Positions 29,492-37,357 of a DNA stretch of 64,000 nucleotides are shown here, in pieces (position 1 is the stretch's first letter; every line of letters starts with the position of its first letter). Under the pieces are notes generated by a model, which searched no databases, was not told the origin of the DNA, and saw only the letters and a list, made by a program, of their open reading frames with translations. Position numbers and translations under genes: made by a program. The stretch comes from Escherichia coli (GTDB lineage Bacteria > Pseudomonadota > Gammaproteobacteria > Enterobacterales > Enterobacteriaceae), in the NCBI RefSeq assembly GCF_003991155.1, contig NZ_CP031293.1, one strand, 5' to 3'.

Positions 29492-29625
29492 AGTTTGCTC
29501 CTGCCATAACGTGAAGAAGCAATGACCTGGTGGTCCGTGACTTCCCTACGCTGGCATTATCCAGATCAGGTGATACGGGTATTTCTCAGCCTTCACGCAG
29601 AAGGGCACCCCGAGTCGTTTGGTTG
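29492..29625 (-). promoter_or_regulatory. TPP riboswitch (thi-box) leader of thiMD
   Basis: Minus-strand leader reads AACCAAACGACTCGGGGTGCCCTTCTGCGTGAAGGCTGAGAAATACCCGTATCACCTGATCTGGATAATGCCAGCGTAGGG, the thiM aptamer as I recall it, followed by the expression platform up to the thiM ATG. Confidence 0.85.
29544..29625. repeat. 82-bp direct repeat, left copy (attL-like); lies within the thiM riboswitch aptamer
   Basis: Perfect 82/82 identity with 37276..37357. Confidence 0.9.
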
Positions 29626-30242: not shown

Positions 30243-30488
30243 CTATAACTTCTTGAGGTTGAATGTAGAAAAAGACAGCTCTTTCATTTCAATAACACCG
30301 AAATTTGATAGCTGTTTCAGCCAGAATTTTAAACCTGACTCAGAGCAACCTGCTCGATGTAACACATCGCTATATTTTAGCGGTGTTGGCTTTCCTTTAT
30401 AGAGGTAAACAAGCGTTTCGTAGGTGTGTTTTCCGGTGTCGTTACACTGAATGCGGTCTACTTGATTTTTTACTAAATATTGGATCAT
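30243..30488 (-). CDS. Hypothetical small protein, possible winged-helix (island)
   Basis: 81-aa ORF with AAGGAGG upstream, directly after the 239-aa gene stop. Confidence 0.45.
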   Translation of the reverse strand: MIQYLVKNQVDRIQCNDTGKHTYETLVYLYKGKPTPLKYSDVLHRAGCSESGLKFWLKQLSNFGVIEMKELSFSTFNLKKL

Positions 30489-30499
30489 AGTCCTCCTTA

Positions 30500-31219
30500 T
30501 TAAAATGGAATGTCAAAATCGTCCTCTTCTGTCTCAGGTATCGTGTATATATGTTCTCTTCCTGTAAATTCAGAAACCACTATTGAAATTAGCCTGTATG
30601 CCTCTATTTTATCGCCCTGCGTTTCAGCTAAAGCCCACTCAAGGGCTGCTTCTGTTGGCTGTCCATTCGGTTTGCAAATAGTGACACCGCCCCAAGGAAG
30701 CTCTGTTTTTTCCTGCTGAATAGAGCGTGTTGTTTCTAGTGTTTTTTTATCTTCCGTAGGGGGAAGCTGTTCAGGAACAGCTTTAACAGTAGATACTTGC
30801 TCTGTCTGTGGCTTTTCTGCATTTACAGAGGCTTTCGCTTCTCTTGGTGCTGTAATATGTGCATCTGTAAAGGGTAATGCTTTATAGAGTGATGTTTGAC
30901 CGTGGCGTGCCTCTACAGAAAGAACTCCCATATCAACAAACATATTTATAATATTGCGTACCTGACGATCACTAACCATTCCAATATTAGCTAATGTTTT
31001 TTGAGTAGCGTAACATTCTTGCCCTTGTTCATTGAATCCAGCTATATAGCTATAGATTTCAACGGCTGGCAGTGTAGCGGTGTATTCATTACCAGATGGT
31101 GAGTACCATTTTTTAAACATCTTCAACCATTGCTCAACAACTACATATTTTTGTTTACCATCTTTCTGATTTAGACATTTGGCTTTCGCTTCGGCAATTG
31201 TTTTGATATTTTTGATCAT
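30500..31219 (-). CDS. Putative replication-initiator-like DNA-binding protein with SSB-like acidic C-terminal tip (…EEDDFDIPF)
   Basis: 239-aa ORF with strong AAGGAGG SD; N-terminal wHTH-like segment, P/E/K/T-rich linker, C-terminus DDFDIPF. Confidence 0.6.
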   Translation of the reverse strand: MIKNIKTIAEAKAKCLNQKDGKQKYVVVEQWLKMFKKWYSPSGNEYTATLPAVEIYSYIAGFNEQGQECYATQKTLANIGMVSDRQVRNIINMFVDMGVLSVEARHGQTSLYKALPFTDAHITAPREAKASVNAEKPQTEQVSTVKAVPEQLPPTEDKKTLETTRSIQQEKTELPWGGVTICKPNGQPTEAALEWALAETQGDKIEAYRLISIVVSEFTGREHIYTIPETEEDDFDIPF

Positions 31220-31343
31220 TTAGTTCCTCCTTTGTAAGGACTGTAATTAGTAGTTCATTAACAAGTTTTGGAATTGATTTCCCTTCTGCCTTTGCGCGAT
31301 TTAACAACGCGTTATAAGTTGCAGAGTCAAAATTAATATTCAT
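31155..31343 (-). CDS. Ribbon-helix-helix (CopG/Arc-like) small DNA-binding protein
   Basis: Start at MNINFDSATYNALLNRAKAEGKS with GGAGAGGAGA SD; overlaps start of the Rep-like gene. Confidence 0.55.
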   Translation of the reverse strand: MNINFDSATYNALLNRAKAEGKSIPKLVNELLITVLTKEELNDQKYQNNCRSESQMSKSERW

Positions 31344-31365: not shown

Positions 31366-31548
31366 TTATTCTTTCTCTGCTTCTGCCTTACGCAGTTCAT
31401 CAATAATCTTGAGTGCATCGTCAAAGCATTTTTCACGCTCTGGATAACCTCGACTCCTTGCCATATTACGATTCATTACTACTTGATGTCGTGTTAACTC
31501 ACCTTTTTTAAATGCCTCTACGACGTGTTCCGGTATAAACCATTTCAT
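31366..31548 (-). CDS. Hypothetical 60-aa protein, first gene of the island's minus-strand operon
   Basis: ATG preceded by AAGGAG at optimal spacing; basic/acidic helical sequence. Confidence 0.5.
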   Translation of the reverse strand: MKWFIPEHVVEAFKKGELTRHQVVMNRNMARSRGYPEREKCFDDALKIIDELRKAEAEKE

Positions 31549-32323
31549 AAAAAACTCCTTATTCAGTTAAAAGAAAAACACCTTGCAAGCCTGACGGCTT
31601 CAAAGTGCATTGATTTTGATTATTTAGAGAAGAATGTTTTTCTGTCCCTCTAGTACCTATTATTACATATAAATAAACATTTGTCAATATCTTTTCATAA
31701 AAAATCAGAACCTTTTCATGCACTTACATTTTTTCTTAGCGATTCGTGCTCTCCTGTGTAGTGCTATTCTTCATTACCAGCTAAAACGCTCTAAAACGCG
31801 TTCTAACGAAGTTTTGATAAAAGCAATACATTCTCTTATGTAATGGCTGTTTAGCTCGCCAGAGGCTTATTTAAGTGGCTTATTTTGTATTTGTTAGATG
31901 ATGATAGATATAAAACAGAGAGTTCTTAGATTAGTTACTTTATAAAACGCTCTGTAAAGCCCTGTAGTGAGTTTATATATGTAGGCAAAGCGGTTTCCAT
32001 TCTCTACCCTGCTTAATGCTGTTAGAGAAGCATTTAGACCCCTTATTTTTAATTACCTAAAGTATCCTCTATACATCTCTGTTATGAAACACCTCTGAAT
32101 CCTTCATAAAACACATTATGACGCAAAGAACACTTTTCTAAGGTGATTCCCTTCCTGAACTCTGTTTCTTGCGTCAGAGAGCTACACAGAGAGCTTATAA
32201 AGCTATTATTAATAATAAAGTAGATAAAGTAAGTAAGATAAGTAAGAAGATTAACTAAGATAGATAAGATTAATAAGATCAGAATTCTCTTTCGGTGTCG
32301 CCTCTGGCTTTTCCACCGAAAAC

Positions 32324-33019
32324 AATTACACGACTACAGAATGTAGGAAGTGAAATTGTATTGAGGCTTAGTGAAATTACACGAGGAAAGCAGAGTGTAA
32401 TTGAGCTTTAGCCGCTCTCTCTTCGAGTAATTACACAACTACAGAGAATAACAGAGTTATTAAATGTAGGAGGGTAATTAAGAGTTAGAGAGAGTTAACA
32501 CGTAAGCAATCAGATGATTGGTTAGGTGATTACTCTTACTGCGCACAGCGCAATAGTATTCCTTCGTGGGCGTTACCGCCAACGATAGTTACACGAAGAA
32601 AGTAACGCTTTGCTTTCGGTGTGAGCGGAACGGGCCAGCCACAAAGCCCGAAAGGTAGCGGAGTAAGGCTGCTTGCCAGAGAGTGGAGCTAACGCCGGAA
32701 GGCAAAAGATCATATATATAGTATAAAGAATATTATTTAATTATAGTATTGGTGGAACTCATTACCTAAGGTAAACCGGAGACCACTTCCAACGGTTAGG
32801 CAACCACTTCCAATTGTGTTATTTCCCCTTTTACCCTAAGTAAATTTTAGCCTTTCGTTACATCCATTTATCACATAGCACTTACCCTGTGTAAATCATA
32901 GAATAATGCTCTCTATTCCCTGTGTAATTCCATACTAAAAAATTCAATGAAAAGTAGTTTAAAAGTGCAATGTTAGCTTTCTTCACTTTTACATCACTTT
33001 CGCTGCGCCTTGTGTAATG
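32324..33019. repeat. Iteron-like repeat cluster (AATTACAC core, both orientations) in a 1.75-kb non-coding region
   Basis: AATTACACGACTACAGA at ~32324 and AATTACACAACTACAGA at ~32429; shorter copies at ~32375 and inverted at ~32396, ~32885, ~32918, ~33008. Confidence 0.6.
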
Positions 33020-33312
33020 CGGCTTACAGAGCACTATCAGAAATTATTGATCAAAAATCAACCTATTATTTGTCGAACAAGTTTTCTTTAATGCAACAAA
33101 AATTATTTTTTCAAAATAAACACACAATTTAATAGCTTGCTAATTTTACCAAAATGTAACTACATGATTCTCATGCAAGAAGTGTAGTGATAAGGCAGGC
33201 TAAATCACCACACTAAAAAACTTCGAATTTCGTAGTGAAAAAAGTACTTTACACACCTAATCAACACGCCCAATAATCACTACACACAAATCAATACAGA
33301 AGAAAAAAGAAG

Positions 33313-33864
33313 ATGGCTAATATTGGATACATTAGGGTATCGACTGTGCAACAAAACACAGACCGTCAATTAGCAGGAGTAACTCTTGATAAAGTCTTTG
33401 AAGATAAAGCGTCAGGCAAGAACACTCAGCGCCCACAGTTTGAGGCAATGATGAACTATGTGCGGGAGGGTGACGTGTTACACGTCCATAGTATTGATCG
33501 CCTTTGTCGTAATACAGCCGACCTTCTGGCAACTGTAGAGCAATTAACAAAGCGCGGCGTGTCTGTGCATTTCCATAAAGAAGACTTTAAGACAGGAAAG
33601 AACTCTCCCGCAGGGAATATGATGCTCACAGTTCTTGCAGCAGTGGCACAAATGGAACGTGAAATGATGCTTGAGCGTCAACGTGAAGGGATCGCCGCAG
33701 CCAAGGCCGCTGGACGTATAGCAAAACGTGGTAATGGAAAAGCAATTGATCGAGCGGGAATTGCTGCCGCTCTCGCGAATGGTGGCTCAATTCGGAGCGT
33801 AGCAAAAGATTTCAGTGTCAGCACGCAGACGGTGCAACGTATCAAGAAAGAGCAGGTGGCGTAA
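33313..33864 (+). CDS. Small serine recombinase (resolvase/invertase family)
   Basis: 183 aa; N-terminal catalytic motif IGYIRVSTVQQNTDRQ with the nucleophilic Ser; C-terminal HTH. Confidence 0.85.
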   Translation: MANIGYIRVSTVQQNTDRQLAGVTLDKVFEDKASGKNTQRPQFEAMMNYVREGDVLHVHSIDRLCRNTADLLATVEQLTKRGVSVHFHKEDFKTGKNSPAGNMMLTVLAAVAQMEREMMLERQREGIAAAKAAGRIAKRGNGKAIDRAGIAAALANGGSIRSVAKDFSVSTQTVQRIKKEQVA

Positions 33865-34030: not shown

Positions 34031-34531
34031 TTATTGATTCAGTCGATCCCATTTAACCGCAGATACAATTCCCCAATTACCACTAGCATTAGGCCTACGC
34101 CACTTCGCGGTTTCCATTCCACGAAGGTATTCGAGAGCTTCATTGAACGAACTGAAACGTTTCTGGGCTGATTTTTCCCCTACTCTAAACGAACCATCGC
34201 GAGTACTTGCCAATCCTGGATGAAAACACGACCCATCTGCAGCATAAGGAACAAGTACCTCCTGATCATCAGGTTTCCTTGAATCAGAAGCCAGTAACTG
34301 CCAAGGCTCAATACGCAAAGCGTCAGCCAGAACCTCAATTGCATCAAGAGATGCATTAGAGCAACCACGCTCAATTCGACTCATATAACTACGTGCAAAA
34401 CCACACCGATCTGCAAAGGCCTCTTGGCTTAAGCCAATAGCTATACGGAACTCTTTTACTCGTTGTCCAAAAAGGTATCTCAGATTCTTTCGCATGGCAC
34501 AAAGATGCAATTTGACGCACCAATTAACCAC
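34031..34531 (-). CDS. XRE-family HTH regulator with uncharacterised C-terminal domain
   Basis: Cro/C1-type HTH (GLSQEAFADRCGFARSYMSRIERG); likely start at internal Met (34495). Confidence 0.7.
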   Translation of the reverse strand: MVNWCVKLHLCAMRKNLRYLFGQRVKEFRIAIGLSQEAFADRCGFARSYMSRIERGCSNASLDAIEVLADALRIEPWQLLASDSRKPDDQEVLVPYAADGSCFHPGLASTRDGSFRVGEKSAQKRFSSFNEALEYLRGMETAKWRRPNASGNWGIVSAVKWDRLNQ

Positions 34532-34605
34532 GCACTAATCGTGACATTTTGAATCAATCATGTATTATTAGCATCACCATCCATTTGACACACCAAGGGA
34601 GACAA

Positions 34606-34953
34606 ATGAAAAAACTAGTATTTGCCGCTTTGTTAATTCCAGTGATGGGCCACGCCACAACCTTTTCCTGTAAAGCAATACAGGAAGGTCATATTGACTC
34701 GGGAAGTCAGAAAGTTTCTGTAGATTCAACTTTTGATATACAAGATAAAAAAATGACCATAAATCTTGGCGGTAAAACTTGGAGACTTGATTTGGTAGGT
34801 CAAAAAAGCATCGCAAAGATGTATGCTACACCTGACGGAGGGGTTGCAGCCACATACATTGACAATGGCAGTATACCGATATTTGTATTACGCCCTTCTA
34901 ATCCCGATGGGGAGATGGCTGTTTACACATTGAGTATGTGTTCTGAAGTATGA
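34606..34953 (+). CDS. Small secreted protein of unknown function
   Basis: Start at MKKLVFAALLIPVMGHA (signal peptide) with AAGGGAGA SD; divergent from the XRE gene. Confidence 0.6.
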   Translation: MKKLVFAALLIPVMGHATTFSCKAIQEGHIDSGSQKVSVDSTFDIQDKKMTINLGGKTWRLDLVGQKSIAKMYATPDGGVAATYIDNGSIPIFVLRPSNPDGEMAVYTLSMCSEV

Positions 34954-35030
34954 TTGATCGGCGTGATATTCACGCCGTTTTTGGGGAAATTTGTATATTG
35001 AAAAATATAGAAATAGAACTTTTATCAAGC

Positions 35031-35756
35031 CTATTTATTAACAGGTAGTAATGTCAGATCGCCATAATGGGCTTGTCTATGGCAATTAGGACATAATGCA
35101 ATAGCATTTTCCACAGAGTCCTCCCCCCCCTTTGAAAGCCACTCAATATGATGAACTTCTAGAAATGGAGTACCATCTTCCTTTAGAAAAGGAGCATCTC
35201 GCTTACAATATTGACATTTTCCATTTGCACTCAAAAGAACTTCAGCAACTACATATGGGCTTCGTTTATAAACTCGTGTTGTTACTTCGATTAGTTCCGG
35301 GATTTTACTTTCTGTCGCTAAAATTTGCTTTCGTTCCACTGAAGATAATTTTGCAGCCGTCTCAACAGCTTCTTCGAAAACCGATTTTACTTGACGATAA
35401 CGCCACATCCCTTCTAAATCCTGGTATAATTCCCAAATACCGTGCACAGATGGTTGATAGATTTCAAAAATATTTCCACGCTTGAACAATCGGTCATACT
35501 TATGATGCCGATGAGTTACATCATCAGTTCGTCGGGCAGTTTTGTTGAAACTCCAGTAGCTCCGCTTACAATTAACTGTATTAGCAATTAAATTGAGCCA
35601 AGTATTATCTTTATAAGATGGAAATAGCTTTCTAAGATAATCATCTACCTGCTTAGCCGTTGCAGCCCCACCAAACTGATTAGCAATTATCTGTATGGTA
35701 ATAGCTCTTATCGGTTGATCGCCATACTTGTATTTTTTGCCTAAATTTTTAACCAT
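35031..35756 (-). CDS. HNH endonuclease, McrA-like C-terminal nuclease domain with distinct N-terminal domain
   Basis: C-terminal CQYC...EVHHIEWLSKGG...NAIALCPNCHRQAHY zinc-finger HNH motif, similar to what I recall of E. coli McrA; ~150-aa N-terminal region unrecognised. Confidence 0.75.
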   Translation of the reverse strand: MVKNLGKKYKYGDQPIRAITIQIIANQFGGAATAKQVDDYLRKLFPSYKDNTWLNLIANTVNCKRSYWSFNKTARRTDDVTHRHHKYDRLFKRGNIFEIYQPSVHGIWELYQDLEGMWRYRQVKSVFEEAVETAAKLSSVERKQILATESKIPELIEVTTRVYKRSPYVVAEVLLSANGKCQYCKRDAPFLKEDGTPFLEVHHIEWLSKGGEDSVENAIALCPNCHRQAHYGDLTLLPVNK

Positions 35757-35884: not shown

Positions 35885-37222
35885 CTAAGTCTCCCAACAA
35901 AGACCATCGATCACATAACAAACGGTGGAAAGTGGGAATGTGTGCAGATAACGCTGGGTAATCCCTACTCCACTCTTTTCATGACCTACCACCTGTTGCA
36001 GATGCGCCAAATTACTCACCCAACCAGCTAAACAAGTAGAAATCATAGTATGCCGGAAACTATGCACCAAGCGCCGCTGCCCATAATCATCAAGATAAGG
36101 AATATCAAGCTGATCACGAACATCTGAAAGAACTTTACCTATCTTTGACATATTTCGACCTGAGACTTCCGAAAAGATTTTCTCTTTCCATTGGCGGTTA
36201 ACAAAATCCAGAAACCCCCACTCAATCAGTTTGGGATGAATCACTACCTGTCTTGTAGCATTCTCAGTTTTACCCAGCCTTCTTTCCGCGATCAGAAGAT
36301 AGTGCCGCTGGCTATCTTCATCAAATTTGATCTGCGACTTCTCCAGTTTAGCAATCTCACCTCTTCTGGCTCCTGTGTACGCCAACAACAAAGTGATCCA
36401 CTTCTGCCATCCATCAGGCTGCTTTAGTGCCCATCCTACAAATTTTTTCATTTCTGCTGCACTGTATGCACCAAACCTAGCTTTGGATGGTGCCGCTACT
36501 ATTCCATCAGTCGGAGACTTAGATAGAATATCTTTGTTTTCAGTCAGAAATGTTTTGAATAACGATTTGTAGATTTTAAGGTGCTTATGTACAGCCTCAG
36601 CACCAACTAAATCCTCTGGCAGCACATCATCACATTCGATTAGTTGCTGAATAGTCATTGACCTATACGGTTGCACTACACGCTTTGGTAAGTTTTCGAC
36701 AGTTTCCATTACTCGCTTAATATCTTGTTTGGTGATTGCCGTTACGTCTGTTTCTTTTCCCAAGACAACAAGCAATACCTCCATATAACGCTCATTTGCC
36801 ATTGAGATCGATTTTGTCCAATTTCGACCTCTTTCCTCCTTGTACATAGCCCACGCATCAGCAAGTGTTAGCACCTTTTCCGGTTTGGCTGGTGGTTGAA
36901 GCTGCAAAACTTCTTTAGAAATATTGTTCAATTGCTGAGGGAGTGGCAACGGAATCATTACGTTACGTGACGAAGCGATCAAGTTTGAAACAAACTTATT
37001 AAATTGTGGCAACGGAGTAGCGAGTGATTTAACGAAAGGAATGTGCGGAGTAAGGCCAATCATCAACGCCGATGCTTCGCGATAACTGTCAGTAAAAAGT
37101 GATTTTTTGTATATCCGACCATCCGAAAGCCGGATTTGTAGATAGTAATTACCGTTTCGCTGAAATGTGTATGGGAGAGTTCTTGACCTCATAAACGCCC
37201 CCTTTTTGTACCTTAACAGCAT
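35885..37222 (-). CDS. Tyrosine site-specific integrase
   Basis: 445 aa; C-terminal catalytic region with HSFRHT and GITQRYLH; starts 53 bp from the right direct repeat. Confidence 0.85.
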   Translation of the reverse strand: MLLRYKKGAFMRSRTLPYTFQRNGNYYLQIRLSDGRIYKKSLFTDSYREASALMIGLTPHIPFVKSLATPLPQFNKFVSNLIASSRNVMIPLPLPQQLNNISKEVLQLQPPAKPEKVLTLADAWAMYKEERGRNWTKSISMANERYMEVLLVVLGKETDVTAITKQDIKRVMETVENLPKRVVQPYRSMTIQQLIECDDVLPEDLVGAEAVHKHLKIYKSLFKTFLTENKDILSKSPTDGIVAAPSKARFGAYSAAEMKKFVGWALKQPDGWQKWITLLLAYTGARRGEIAKLEKSQIKFDEDSQRHYLLIAERRLGKTENATRQVVIHPKLIEWGFLDFVNRQWKEKIFSEVSGRNMSKIGKVLSDVRDQLDIPYLDDYGQRRLVHSFRHTMISTCLAGWVSNLAHLQQVVGHEKSGVGITQRYLHTFPLSTVCYVIDGLCWET

Positions 37223-37275
37223 GATTTATGGTCAAAAAGAGATACAACCACATAATTTTCAAGACTATTTTGGCC

Positions 37276-37357
37276 CCCTACGCTGGCATTATCCAGATCA
37301 GGTGATACGGGTATTTCTCAGCCTTCACGCAGAAGGGCACCCCGAGTCGTTTGGTTG
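37276..37357. repeat. 82-bp direct repeat, right copy (attR-like); duplicate of the thiM aptamer segment
   Basis: Identical to 29544..29625; followed by native sequence leading into rcnR. Confidence 0.9.

What the first reader, a model, noticed from the sequence alone, without database searches (positions are those of the whole stretch)
31549..33312. 1.75-kb non-coding region inside the island packed with iteron-like AATTACAC repeats and tandem short repeats
No ORF of at least 60 aa lies between the minus-strand operon and the serine recombinase gene. The region holds two near-identical 17-mers AATTACAC(G/A)ACTACAGA about 105 bp apart and at least five more AATTACAC cores in both orientations. 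It also has a tandem CTAAAACGC(T/G) pair (~31781-31800) with a third copy at ~31943. The arrangement resembles a plasmid or satellite origin with Rep-binding iterons, a res site for the adjacent recombinase, or an ncRNA locus.
Basis: seen in the sequence. Interest (0 to 1): 0.6.

Follow-up and report, generated by a model that had tools for sequence, protein, structure and literature searches.

The report
Satellite replication origin and control region

Summary
The repeats are real and clustered, and the region is non-coding. The window is E. coli chromosome. A 7.7-kb island sits in the thiM TPP riboswitch and is a truncated member of a family of roughly 12-13-kb capsid-gene-bearing islands; part of this region matches in 714 of 5426 complete E. 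coli genomes. In all of them a 1.7-3-kb non-coding stretch lies upstream of a Rep-like gene.

The stretch is a mosaic:
- Module A: the rep-operon promoter.
- Module B: 0.8 kb, holding the AATTACAC hairpins.
- An AT-rich box followed by 22-bp-phased palindromic iterons.
- Module C: travels with the serine recombinase gene.

Five types of Rep N-terminal domain match five iteron types next to the AT-rich box. This held in 27 of 27 isolate or viral loci and 33 of 35 metagenome contigs. The origin is therefore at about 32706-32811 (GGAAnnCAnTTCC x3). Module B assorts independently of Rep type, so AATTACAC is not the Rep iteron.

Module B is under purifying selection and forms four tandem hairpins (z = -6.6). 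No compensatory base changes, Rfam match or clear promoter were found. I cannot tell whether it works as a protein-binding array, a DNA structure or an RNA. This is a new variant of a known kind; interest is moderate.

The parts
30500..31219 (-). Rep-like initiator gene (239 aa), DNA-binding-domain type R1. It has an N-terminal winged helix, a disordered linker, a small C-terminal helical domain, and ends in ...DDFDIPF.
   Evidence: Eight PHROG families annotated as replication initiation protein, replication initiation O-like or DnaD-like helicase loader match, with E from 4e-7 to 7e-4. Pfam HTH_36 matches at 3e-5. The AlphaFold2 model has pLDDT 86-95 for residues 30-125. Its best Foldseek matches include RepA_N-type plasmid initiator N-domains (4pql, 4pt7, 5kbj), but the E-values are weak, 0.01-0.04.
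31270..31282 (.). Single iteron-like palindrome GGAAATCAATTCC, 50 bp upstream of the Rep ATG. Candidate Rep auto-operator.
   Evidence: It is an exact match to the I1 pattern. It is present at the same offset in 8 of 8 R1 loci and in no locus of another Rep type. It lies inside an unannotated RHH-like small ORF, so coding constraint may also explain its conservation.
31366..31548 (-). First gene of the leftward rep operon (60 aa), conserved in all family members.
   Evidence: Six family members align at 72-95% identity to the window protein. The gene is annotated in RefSeq copies.
31659..31687 (-). Sigma-70-type promoter of the rep operon: TTGACA, 17-nt spacer with TG, then AATAAT.
   Evidence: It matches 11 of 12 consensus positions. 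Both hexamers are invariant across the six aligned lineage-B loci.
31549..31900 (.). Module A: promoter and operator region that travels with the left operon. It includes the CTAAAACGC tandem at 31781-31799.
   Evidence: It is shared at 76-92% identity with loci whose middle module is different. The tandem repeat is confirmed and is invariant in lineage B.
31718..31843 (+). Candidate 41-aa ORF with a hydrophobic N-terminus and a basic C-terminus. Its status is uncertain.
   Evidence: It is intact in 10 of 12 lineage-B copies, with variable sites by codon position 6/9/14. It is disrupted in several other loci.
31900..32716 (.). Module B: a conserved non-coding module specific to one lineage of the family. 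Lineage B' has a different module that shares only a core of about 100 nt.
   Evidence: It is present at 90-100% identity in 407 of 5426 complete E. coli genomes. Its conserved blocks have nucleotide diversity 0.01-0.03, against 0.05-0.16 at four-fold degenerate sites of neighbouring genes. One-nucleotide indels occur inside conserved blocks. It is independent of Rep type but co-varies with the downstream structural gene set.
32218..32279 (.). AAGT / AAGATAAGT short tandem repeats, variable in length between loci.
   Evidence: Tandem Repeats Finder rows. Indels of 13-18 nt between loci.
32290..32495 (.). Four tandem hairpins or palindromes: HP1 32290-32321, HP2 32322-32359, HP3 32365-32413, HP4 32414-32495. 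The AATTACAC/GTGnAATT cores are the arms of HP2-HP4.
   Evidence: MFE is -71.8 kcal/mol with z = -6.6 on the + strand, and -59.1 with z = -5.0 on the - strand. A 19-nt palindromic stem extension is present or absent in HP2 and in HP4 depending on the locus. Substitutions avoid the predicted stems: 8 of 29 variable columns are paired, while 57% of all columns are paired.
32540..32639 (.). Core shared between modules B and B': the TGCGC-ACA-GCGCA mini-hairpin (32540-32552), a second hairpin, then TTCGgTGTGAGCGG.
   Evidence: An nhmmer profile of B finds only this stretch in B' loci, with E from 1e-5 to 7e-5. Alignment. The pattern built on it retrieved 56 metagenome contigs.
32706..32750 (.). 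AT-rich box, the candidate DNA-unwinding element of the origin.
   Evidence: Read directly from the sequence. A window of 40 nt with at least 36 A/T is found at the equivalent place in every family member, always 50-115 bp before the cognate iterons.
32754..32811 (+). Three type-I1 iterons: GGAACTCATTACC, GGAGACCACTTCC and GGCAACCACTTCC, spaced 24 and 21 bp. These are the predicted Rep (R1) binding sites.
   Evidence: The I1 pattern gives 12 matches in the window against 3.9 expected, and no shuffle reached 12. Other R1 loci have 3-5 copies at 22-23-bp spacing. Iteron type co-varies with Rep domain type.
32848..32912 (.). Remnant of a non-cognate (I3-type, ...CGTTACATCC...) iteron cassette.
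   Evidence: It matches the last copy of the I3 array of R3 loci.
32914..33312 (+). Module C, inherited together with the type-A recombinase gene. It contains CTGTGTAAT copies (32888, 32921, 33011, the first just upstream of the module) and the recombinase promoter at 33248-33277.
   Evidence: It is 94-96% identical, contiguous with the recombinase gene, in loci of the other lineage. Promoter-like site, 10 of 12 consensus positions.
33182..33285 (.). Four copies of GTGTAGTGAT-like half-sites in alternating orientation (33182+, 33204-, 33232+, 33276-). Candidate res or auto-operator of the recombinase.
   Evidence: The type-B recombinase (62% identical) has a different repeated inverted motif, TGTATnnATTTGG, at the same place.
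33313..33864 (+). Small serine recombinase (183 aa), resolvase/invertase family.
   Evidence: PHROG 125, annotated 'DNA invertase', at 2e-61. It matches Tn3 and gamma-delta resolvase at 3e-27 and Gin at 2e-24.

Best explanation
The region is the cis-acting control region of a phage-satellite-like replicon. It has four parts.

1. **31549-31900.** This carries the promoter and operators of the leftward operon, which encodes a 60-aa protein, an RHH-like protein, the Rep-like initiator and a small winged-helix protein.

2. **32706-32811.** This is a lambda/iteron-type origin: an AT-rich unwinding element followed by three palindromic GGAAnnCAnTTCC iterons spaced about two helical turns apart. They are bound by the winged-helix N-terminal domain of the island's Rep. 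The binding is inferred from co-variation, not shown.

3. **33182-33285.** This is the promoter plus a probable res/operator site of the serine recombinase. The recombinase would resolve replicon multimers (inferred).

4. **The AATTACAC repeats.** These are not Rep iterons. They are the arms of a hairpin cluster inside an 0.8-kb lineage-specific module (31900-32716). The module is under purifying selection and is inherited with the element's structural genes rather than with Rep. My committed reading is that module B is an element-specific cis-acting recognition array of ATTACAC sites. Lineage B' carries ATTGCAC instead. A lineage-specific protein would read these sites; the best candidate is the 81-92-aa winged-helix protein encoded just after Rep. 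The function would be packaging or replication control. Its hairpin potential may additionally serve priming. This last step is inference and the least certain part.

The window copy is a truncated derivative: it has no capsid genes and its iterons are degenerate.
For: **Family context.**
- The island lies between duplicated TPP-riboswitch segments.
- Relatives carry an integrase, a lambda-E-type capsid gene and the same Rep-to-non-coding-region synteny.

**Rep identity.**

**Origin.**
- The Rep N-terminal type matches the iteron type nearest the AT-rich box in 27 of 27 isolate or viral loci: R1-I1 8, R2-I2 12, R3-I3 4, R4-I4 3.
- In an independent metagenome set it matches in 33 of 35 contigs.
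- That set includes a fifth Rep type (R5) paired 8 of 8 with TATCA-N4-5-TGATA. This motif had been seen earlier only as an orphan array.
- The match is kept although the 1.2 kb between the rep operon and the iterons (modules A and B) is exchanged between lineages.
- The iterons have dyad symmetry and a spacing of 22-23 bp, as in oriLambda and iteron plasmids. That comparison is from established knowledge.

**Module B.**
- It is independent of Rep type: B or B' occurs with R1, R2, R3 and R4.
- It is linked to the structural gene set.
- It is more conserved than synonymous sites of neighbouring genes.
- It is non-coding, as shown by frameshifting indels and by 'none' in the RefSeq annotation of the listed matching genomes.
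- Its top 7-mer is ATTACAC (6 copies), against ATTGCAC (5 copies) in B'.
- The positional winged-helix orthologues of the two lineages are 24% identical.

**Recombinase site.** The repeated inverted motif upstream of the gene is specific to each recombinase type.
Against: - No binding, replication or recombination has been measured. Everything rests on comparative sequence analysis.
- The window's three iterons each break the palindrome by one base, and there are fewer of them than in relatives. This copy may be inactive.
- Two metagenome contigs mismatch Rep and iteron type (L045, L055). They may be assembly chimeras or real recombinants.
- No helicase loader or primase gene is present on the element, so the initiation pathway after Rep binding is unknown.
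- For module B, the winged-helix gene is missing in L013 and L020, which still keep B'.
- A third lineage (L052) has few ATTGCAC copies.
- The B' module has no significant hairpin excess, with z of -1.2 and -1.8. Neither the 'array' reading nor the 'hairpin' reading therefore explains all lineages.
Confidence: 0.65

Rival explanations
1. Module B (about 32288-32716, + strand) is transcribed into a structured non-coding RNA of about 430 nt. The RNA would act on the adjacent origin, as a primer or by transcriptional activation as at oriLambda or ColE1 RNA II. Alternatively it would provide RNA-based immunity, as the P4 CI RNA does, in a family that has no obvious repressor gene.
For: - The fold of 32280-32730 is -156 kcal/mol with z = -7.8 on the + strand, against -134 with z = -6.6 on the - strand.
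- A 21-bp long-range closing helix appears only on the + strand, because it needs G-U pairs.
- All four substitutions in that helix keep pairing by wobble.
- Substitutions and indels avoid stems, and a stem extension is inserted or deleted as a unit.
- The module is under strong purifying selection.
- A weak promoter-like TTAACT-N17-TAAGAT at 32251-32279 would start transcription at the first hairpin. I read this by eye; it is below the tool's threshold.
Against: - No pair shows a double compensatory change among 31 distinct sequences.
- The - strand also folds significantly, as expected for DNA palindromes.
- There is no Rfam match even at E = 10.
- No promoter or terminator was called inside module B.
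- The B' module, its presumed functional equivalent, shows no fold excess.
- Wobble-compatible changes number 6 of 8 on the + strand against 5 of 8 on the - strand, which does not discriminate.
Confidence: 0.2
2. The AATTACAC palindromes are DNA sites for the serine recombinase, either a res site or accessory sites. The region would then mainly be a multimer-resolution or inversion locus.
For: - The recombinase gene is adjacent.
- The three inverted-repeat units are 35, 28 and 53 bp (35 in the short form) and lie within about 160 bp, which recalls the three sub-sites of Tn3/gamma-delta res. That comparison is from memory.
- The core GTGTAAT resembles the start of the recombinase-proximal half-site GTGTAGTGAT.
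- A 173-bp cassette is inverted between two relatives.
Against: - Module B is present unchanged in at least 8 lineage-B loci that have no recombinase gene.
- The same type-A recombinase sits next to the B' module, which has ATTGCAC direct repeats, in 8 loci. Lineage B normally carries the 62%-identical type-B enzyme.
- The half-site polarity in the hairpins is reversed relative to the recombinase-proximal sites: GTGT is inside rather than outside.
- No hix/gix-like site is present.
Confidence: 0.08
3. The AATTACAC repeats are the Rep-binding iterons of the origin.
For: The repeats are clustered close to a Rep-like gene and occur in both orientations.
Against: - They are identical in loci with four unrelated Rep DNA-binding domains, and they are replaced in B' loci that have the same Rep domain as the window.
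- Their spacing is irregular (26, 25, 20, 34 bp and so on) rather than phased with the helix.
- A different array fulfils every iteron criterion.
Confidence: 0.04
4. The region is decayed coding sequence or neutral spacer.
For: - The island is truncated.
- Small ORFs of 26-54 aa exist, and one 41-aa ORF is kept in most copies.
Against: - The conserved blocks are less variable than four-fold degenerate sites of neighbouring genes.
- Frameshifting indels occur in the conserved blocks.
- Under the query, the match lists show 'none', apart from an inserted IS3 transposase and two 'hypothetical protein' entries; no pseudogene is annotated in any listed genome.
- A non-coding stretch of 1.7-3 kb is kept at the same place in all family members.
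Confidence: 0.03

Closest known systems
oriLambda and lambdoid O protein
   Same: Both have an array of 3-5 roughly 18-bp iterons with dyad symmetry, spaced about two helical turns apart, next to an AT-rich region. Both are bound by the N-terminal domain of the initiator, and iteron and domain are exchanged together as a specificity cassette among relatives. Neither needs DnaA boxes; none is found here. PHROG 'replication initiation O-like' families match Rep.
   Different: Here the origin is intergenic, 1.5 kb upstream of rep, not inside the initiator gene. No P/DnaC-like loader gene is present. The C-terminal half of Rep is unrelated to O and ends in an SSB-tip-like DDFDIPF. Several non-cognate iteron cassettes can follow the cognate one.
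Iteron plasmids (pSC101, R6K, F, P1; RepA_N plasmids pSK41/pTZ2162) and the PLE satellite RepA origin
   Same: Both have a winged-helix initiator, phased iterons, an AT-rich element, and a single iteron-like palindrome near the rep start that could act as an auto-operator. The best structural matches of the Rep N-domain include RepA_N initiators. In PLE of Vibrio cholerae the satellite origin also lies in a repeat-rich non-coding region (from memory).
   Different: No Pfam Rep_3 or RepA_N match was found, only HTH_36. The structural E-values are weak. The element is integrated and has an integrase.
RSF1010/R1162 oriV with ssiA/ssiB, and the P4 ori plus crr
   Same: Both pair iterons and an AT-rich region with a neighbouring set of conserved hairpins or repeat blocks needed in cis. 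The P4 crr is two repeat units of about 120 bp carrying short motifs in both orientations. This is comparable to the 105-bp repeat of HP2/HP4 (from memory, an analogy only).
   Different: There is no sequence similarity. No element-encoded primase is present. The function of the hairpin cluster here is untested.
Tn3/gamma-delta res
   Same: The recombinase is a small serine recombinase that is 183 aa long, as is gamma-delta resolvase, and matches it at 3e-27. Inverted half-sites beginning with GTGT lie directly upstream of the gene and overlap its promoter.
   Different: The three-sub-site architecture could not be shown. Half-site sequences are unrelated to TGTCYNNTA. The enzyme is about equally similar to Gin invertase.
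Capsid-forming PICIs (cfPICI) and other E. coli phage satellites
   Same: Both are small integrated elements with an integrase, a replication module and their own HK97/lambda-E-type capsid gene.
   Different: The family lacks terL, portal, protease, primase and alpA, which define cfPICI. It carries a 609-aa protein resembling a tape-measure protein and a tail-fibre/lysozyme-like protein. I did not find the family described in the papers I searched.

Membership tests
Iteron-type (theta) replication origin | Three or more direct repeats of 17-22 bp, phased with the helical repeat | tested here: met
   The window has 3 copies at 32754, 32778 and 32799, spaced 24 and 21 bp. Relatives have 3-5 copies spaced 22-23 bp.
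Iteron-type (theta) replication origin | Adjacent AT-rich DNA-unwinding element | tested here: met
   The box at 32706-32750 is present in every relative, 50-115 bp before the cognate array.
Iteron-type (theta) replication origin | Cognate initiator encoded nearby, with matched specificity | tested here: met
   Five Rep N-domain types pair with five iteron types: 27 of 27 isolate or viral loci and 33 of 35 metagenome contigs.
Iteron-type (theta) replication origin | Rep binds the iterons and the fragment supports autonomous replication | not testable with these tools
   This needs EMSA or footprinting and a replication assay.
Iteron-type (theta) replication origin | DnaA boxes (typical of plasmid origins, absent from oriLambda) | tested here: not met
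   No TTATNCACA with up to 1 mismatch lies in 31549-33312. This fits the lambda-like subtype, not the plasmid subtype.
AATTACAC repeats as Rep iterons | The repeat sequence co-varies with the initiator DNA-binding domain | tested here: not met
   The same module B occurs with R1, R2, R3, R4 and R5, and the same R1 domain occurs with module B'.
res site of a serine resolvase | About 120 bp next to the recombinase gene, with three sub-sites of inverted half-sites specific to the enzyme | tested here: inconclusive
   Type-specific inverted motifs occur at 33182-33285 for type A, and at L006 5490-5615 for type B. The number and geometry of sub-sites are not resolved.
Invertible DNA segment (Hin/Gin type) | Two inverted 26-bp hix/gix-like crossover sites flanking a segment | tested here: not met
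   There is no match to the hix consensus with up to 3 mismatches. No convincing flanking inverted repeats were found.
Known RNA family (Rfam 15) | Covariance-model match at or near the gathering score | tested here: not met
   No match at gathering score. The best match at E up to 10 scores 21 bits, to a eukaryotic snoRNA model.
Structured non-coding RNA (any) | Compensatory base-pair changes supporting a conserved structure | tested here: inconclusive
   There are 0 double changes in 31 distinct sequences, which are over 97% identical. Substitutions are depleted in stems.
cfPICI | Core set including terL, portal, protease, head-tail connectors, primase and alpA-type regulator | tested here: not met
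   PHROG, NCBIfam and Pfam scans of a complete relative find only a capsid, a tape-measure-like protein and a tail-fibre-like protein.

The most novel reading that the evidence does not exclude
Module B (32288-32716) is a structured RNA of about 430 nt, or a single-strand DNA hairpin array. It would work in cis with a lambda-like origin in a so far undescribed, repressor-less family of capsid-encoding E. coli satellites. For example it could be an RNA primer or activator of Rep-dependent initiation, or an RNA immunity factor. The initiator would recruit host replication proteins through a mimic of the SSB C-terminal tip (DDFDIPF).
Probability: 0.2. Interest if true: 0.7.

Novelty: new variant of a known kind. 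Interest (0 to 1): 0.45.

Why it matters
Module B is present in about 8% of complete E. coli genomes, and some part of the region in about 13%, yet RefSeq leaves it unannotated.

- **Origin and specificity.** The analysis locates the origin of a widespread, apparently uncharacterised satellite-like island family. It shows that initiator domain and iterons are swapped as matched cassettes of five types. This is a ready-made system for studying origin specificity and incompatibility between co-resident satellites. Many elements carry extra, non-cognate iteron cassettes.
- **An unexplained conserved module.** The analysis isolates an 0.8-kb non-coding module that is more conserved than the neighbouring genes and has no known counterpart. 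This is a defined target for RNA-seq and deletion experiments.
- **The window copy.** For this island itself the result is more modest. It is a truncated, probably decaying member of the family.

Tried and rejected
- **Rfam.** Searched at gathering score and at E up to 10: nothing relevant.
- **DNA similarity.** Against 50,697 phage records there was no match for the whole region, and only chance-level hits (E = 5) for the conserved core, so no helper cos/pac or origin could be recognised. Against plasmids only two E. coli records matched, one of which is a 4.9-Mb chromosome-sized record.
- **Site searches.** The hix/gix consensus gave 0 matches. DnaA boxes: none in the region. Tus/Ter consensus: no enrichment. 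Long inverted repeats that could flank an invertible segment: none convincing.
- **Coding potential.** Small ORFs were checked across 13 lineage-B copies. Most are broken in many copies, and only the 41-aa ORF at 31718-31843 remains a weak candidate.
- **Covariation.** Alignments of 14 and then 31 distinct sequences show no compensatory pair because the module is too conserved. Profile search links B and B' only through a core of about 100 nt.
- **More distant relatives.** With the 60-aa protein it found only 4 loci, all Escherichia or probable contamination.
- **Literature.** I found no description of this family. CP-933H of O157 showed no link to this family in what I read.
- **Candidate binder.** Co-variation of module B with the small winged-helix protein is not clean: the gene is absent in L013 and L020, and a third lineage has few motif copies.
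Full report
**Where the region lies.** The window is Escherichia coli chromosome, running yegT through thiD-thiM, then an island, then rcnR through yeh. It matches RefSeq genomes at 99.9% identity. Two TPP riboswitch hits (29526-29622 and 37259-37354, both on the - strand) share an identical 82-nt segment. They bound a 7.7-kb insertion.

The island genes, left to right, are:
- a 79-aa protein;
- an 81-aa winged-helix-like protein (30243-30488, -);
- a 239-aa Rep-like protein (30500-31219, -);
- an unannotated RHH-like ORF;
- a 60-aa protein (31366-31548, -);
- the 1764-bp gap;
- a 183-aa serine recombinase (33313-33864, +);
- an HTH regulator, a lipoprotein-like ORF, an HNH / type IV restriction-like protein, and a tyrosine integrase.

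**Check of the observation.** No ORF of 60 aa or more lies in 31549-33312. The two 17-mers 105 bp apart, the CTAAAACGC tandem and its third copy are all present as described. Exact AATTACAC occurs five times in the region, out of six in the whole window. With one mismatch allowed, 13 of 50 window hits fall within 700 bp, so the clustering is real.

The cores are the arms of imperfect palindromes. The stretch 32290-32495 folds into four consecutive hairpins, with z = -6.6 on the + strand and -5.0 on the - strand.

**The region is a conserved, mosaic, non-coding part of a family of elements.** Part of the region matches in 714 of 5426 complete E. coli genomes, at several chromosomal sites (thrW, glyU, thiM and others). 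Under the query, the match lists show 'none', apart from an inserted IS3 transposase and two 'hypothetical protein' entries.

Complete relatives are roughly 12-13 kb. They carry an integrase, a tail-fibre/lysozyme-like protein, a 609-613-aa protein resembling a tape-measure protein, a lambda-E-type major capsid protein (Pfam Phage_cap_E, 6e-14), several small proteins, the winged-helix protein and Rep. These are followed by one or two small genes, 1.7-3 kb without genes, and sometimes the recombinase.

They lack the terminase, portal, protease and primase genes that define cfPICIs. I found no description of the family. A scan of one genome per species recovered only Escherichia.

Pairwise comparison splits the gap into four modules:
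- module A, 31549 to about 31900;
- module B, about 31900 to 32716;
- an AT-rich box followed by repeat arrays;
- module C, 32914-33312, which is inherited together with the recombinase gene.

**The origin.** In relatives, classic arrays of 3-6 palindromic repeats spaced 22-23 bp follow the AT-rich box. The Rep-like proteins share their linker and C-terminal end but have unrelated N-terminal domains of four types.

In all 27 isolate or viral loci with data, the array nearest the AT-rich box matches the Rep type:
- R1 with GGAAnnCAnTTCC;
- R2 with TCACnnTGA;
- R3 with GTAAC-N3-5-GTTAC;
- R4 with AACAGwwwwCTGT.

An independent set of 56 metagenome contigs was retrieved with a DNA pattern from the conserved core. 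It gave 33 concordant cases out of 35. It also revealed a fifth Rep type, paired 8 of 8 with TATCA-N4-5-TGATA, a motif I had previously seen only as an orphan array. The two exceptions are metagenome contigs. They could be chimeras assembled across the 1.2 kb shared by different elements.

The window has Rep type R1 and three R1-type repeats at 32754, 32778 and 32799. Each repeat is one base away from the palindrome consensus. A further exact copy lies 50 bp upstream of the Rep start in all R1 loci and in no others.

Evidence that Rep is an initiator:
- It matches eight phage families annotated as replication initiation protein, O-like initiator or DnaD-like helicase loader.
- It matches Pfam HTH_36.
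- Its modelled N-domain is a confident winged helix. The nearest structures include RepA_N plasmid initiators, although the scores are weak.

There are no DnaA boxes in the region. Together this is the anatomy of a lambda-type iteron origin at 32706-32811. Binding and replication themselves are inferred.

**The AATTACAC module is something else.** Module B is found unchanged with all Rep types. An alternative module B' occurs with the same Rep types. AATTACAC therefore cannot be the Rep specificity determinant.

B versus B' instead tracks the whole set of downstream genes, including the winged-helix protein and the capsid gene. The window island is a truncated lineage-B element that has acquired the recombinase type otherwise seen with B'.

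Module B is functional rather than junk:
- Its conserved blocks have diversity 0.01-0.03, against 0.05-0.16 at four-fold sites of neighbouring genes.
- One-nucleotide indels inside these blocks exclude coding.

B and B' share only a core of about 100 nt: a TGCGC-ACA-GCGCA mini-hairpin, then a second hairpin with a different sequence in each lineage, then TTCGnTGTGAGCGG.

The most frequent 7-mer is ATTACAC in B and ATTGCAC in B'. This one-base difference across the repeat copies suggests co-evolution with a lineage-specific reader. The positional candidate is the 81-92-aa winged-helix protein, which is 24% identical between lineages. That gene is missing in two loci that keep B'. A third lineage has few motif copies.

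**RNA or DNA?** The whole of 32280-32730 folds with z = -7.8 on the + strand and -6.6 on the - strand.

Among 31 distinct sequences, substitutions avoid predicted stems: 8 of 29 variable columns are paired, against 57% of all columns. A 19-nt palindromic stem extension comes and goes as a unit in HP2 and HP4.

There is not one double compensatory change. Wobble-compatible changes do not favour either strand. No Rfam family matches, and no promoter or terminator is called inside the module. The B' module shows no fold excess.

I therefore cannot separate three readings: a protein-binding array, a DNA structure such as a priming signal, or a transcript. I rank them in that order, with low confidence.

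**Other sites in the region.** The rep-operon promoter at 31659-31687 (-) matches 11 of 12 consensus positions and is invariant in lineage B.

Directly upstream of the recombinase gene, four GTGTAGTGAT-like half-sites alternate in orientation around the predicted promoter. The 62%-identical type-B recombinase has a different repeated inverted motif at the same place. This is the best candidate for a res or auto-operator site.

The enzyme is about equally close to Tn3/gamma-delta resolvase and to Gin. No hix-like site or flanking inverted repeats were found.

**Comparison with known systems and verdict.** The origin works like oriLambda and iteron plasmids, and like the origins of other satellites. 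It differs in five ways:
- it is intergenic;
- it lacks a loader gene;
- its initiator has an SSB-tip-like C-terminus;
- it is followed by extra non-cognate cassettes;
- it sits beside a large conserved module without a counterpart.

I rate this a new variant of a known kind, of moderate interest. The open question worth an experiment is what module B does.

Noticed in passing
window 29526-29622 and 37259-37354: The island is inserted inside the thiM TPP riboswitch aptamer, and an identical 82-nt segment is duplicated at both ends. The integrase gene (start at 37222, - strand) now sits directly behind the native thiM promoter side and its aptamer copy. thiM keeps an aptamer copy plus its own expression platform, but island DNA lies upstream of it. 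Integrase expression, thiMD expression or both may therefore be altered or thiamine-responsive.
   Followed up: partly
window 30500-30520 (Rep C-terminus); also L002, L006, L008 Rep genes: All Rep-like proteins of the family end in ...DDFDIPF, ...EDFDIPF or ...YDS(L/I)PF, preceded by a disordered linker of about 50 residues in the model. This resembles the E. coli SSB C-terminal tip DFDDDIPF, which recruits PriA, DnaG, the chi subunit and other partners (PMC10018359, PMC5531588). It is a possible way for the initiator to recruit host replication proteins without encoding a loader.
   Followed up: partly
P0029 (Escherichia phage muut gp154): The R1 DNA-binding domain is 82% identical to the N-terminus of a 332-aa protein of the 146-kb virulent phage muut. 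The C-terminal part of that protein resembles homing endonucleases of T5-like phages. The same sequence-specific domain therefore appears to be reused in a phage nuclease.
   Followed up: partly
L002 8221-8736, L007 4890-5170, L028, L088 (right of the AT-rich box): Many elements carry two to five different iteron arrays in series: the cognate array first, then non-cognate I1, I2, I3, I4 or I5 arrays, some with their own AT-rich box. A 173-bp cassette is inverted between L007 and L024 at 98.8% identity. These may be fossil cassettes, or sites that let one element be replicated or titrated by the Rep of a co-resident element. Genomes carry up to 5 copies of the region.
   Followed up: partly
window 31718-31843 (+): A 41-aa ORF, MHLHFFLAIRALLCSAILHYQLKRSKTRSNEVLIKAIHSLM, has a hydrophobic N-terminus and a basic C-terminus. 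It overlaps the CTAAAACGC repeats. It is intact in most lineage-B copies, including one with an in-frame 9-nt deletion, but is broken in several others. I saw no obvious Shine-Dalgarno sequence.
   Followed up: partly
window about 31155-31343 (-): An unannotated RHH-like small ORF (MNINFDSATYNALLNRAKAEGKSIPKLVNELL...) lies between the 60-aa gene and Rep and overlaps the Rep start. It is conserved at protein level in a divergent third lineage (L052, 58 aa). It is probably a real gene that RefSeq missed.
   Followed up: partly
L005 7288-8283 (E. coli NDM1 relative): A second gene-free gap of about 1 kb lies between the small-gene block and the capsid module of the B'-lineage element. I did not examine it.
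   Followed up: no
window 34031-35756: The right part of the island carries an HTH protein matching restriction-modification 'control protein' models (7e-17) and an HNH protein matching type IV methyl-directed restriction enzyme models (2e-23). This may be anti-phage cargo. It is absent from the 12-kb relatives.
   Followed up: no
L046 (metagenome contig): An element with the fifth Rep type (R5) lies next to thiM, so different members of the family use the same thiM riboswitch attachment site.
   Followed up: no
window 32218-32279: The AAGT/AAGATAAGT short tandem repeat just upstream of the hairpin cluster varies by 13-18 nt between otherwise near-identical copies. It lies where a weak rightward promoter, TTAACT-N17-TAAGAT at 32251-32279, can be read by eye.
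   Followed up: no
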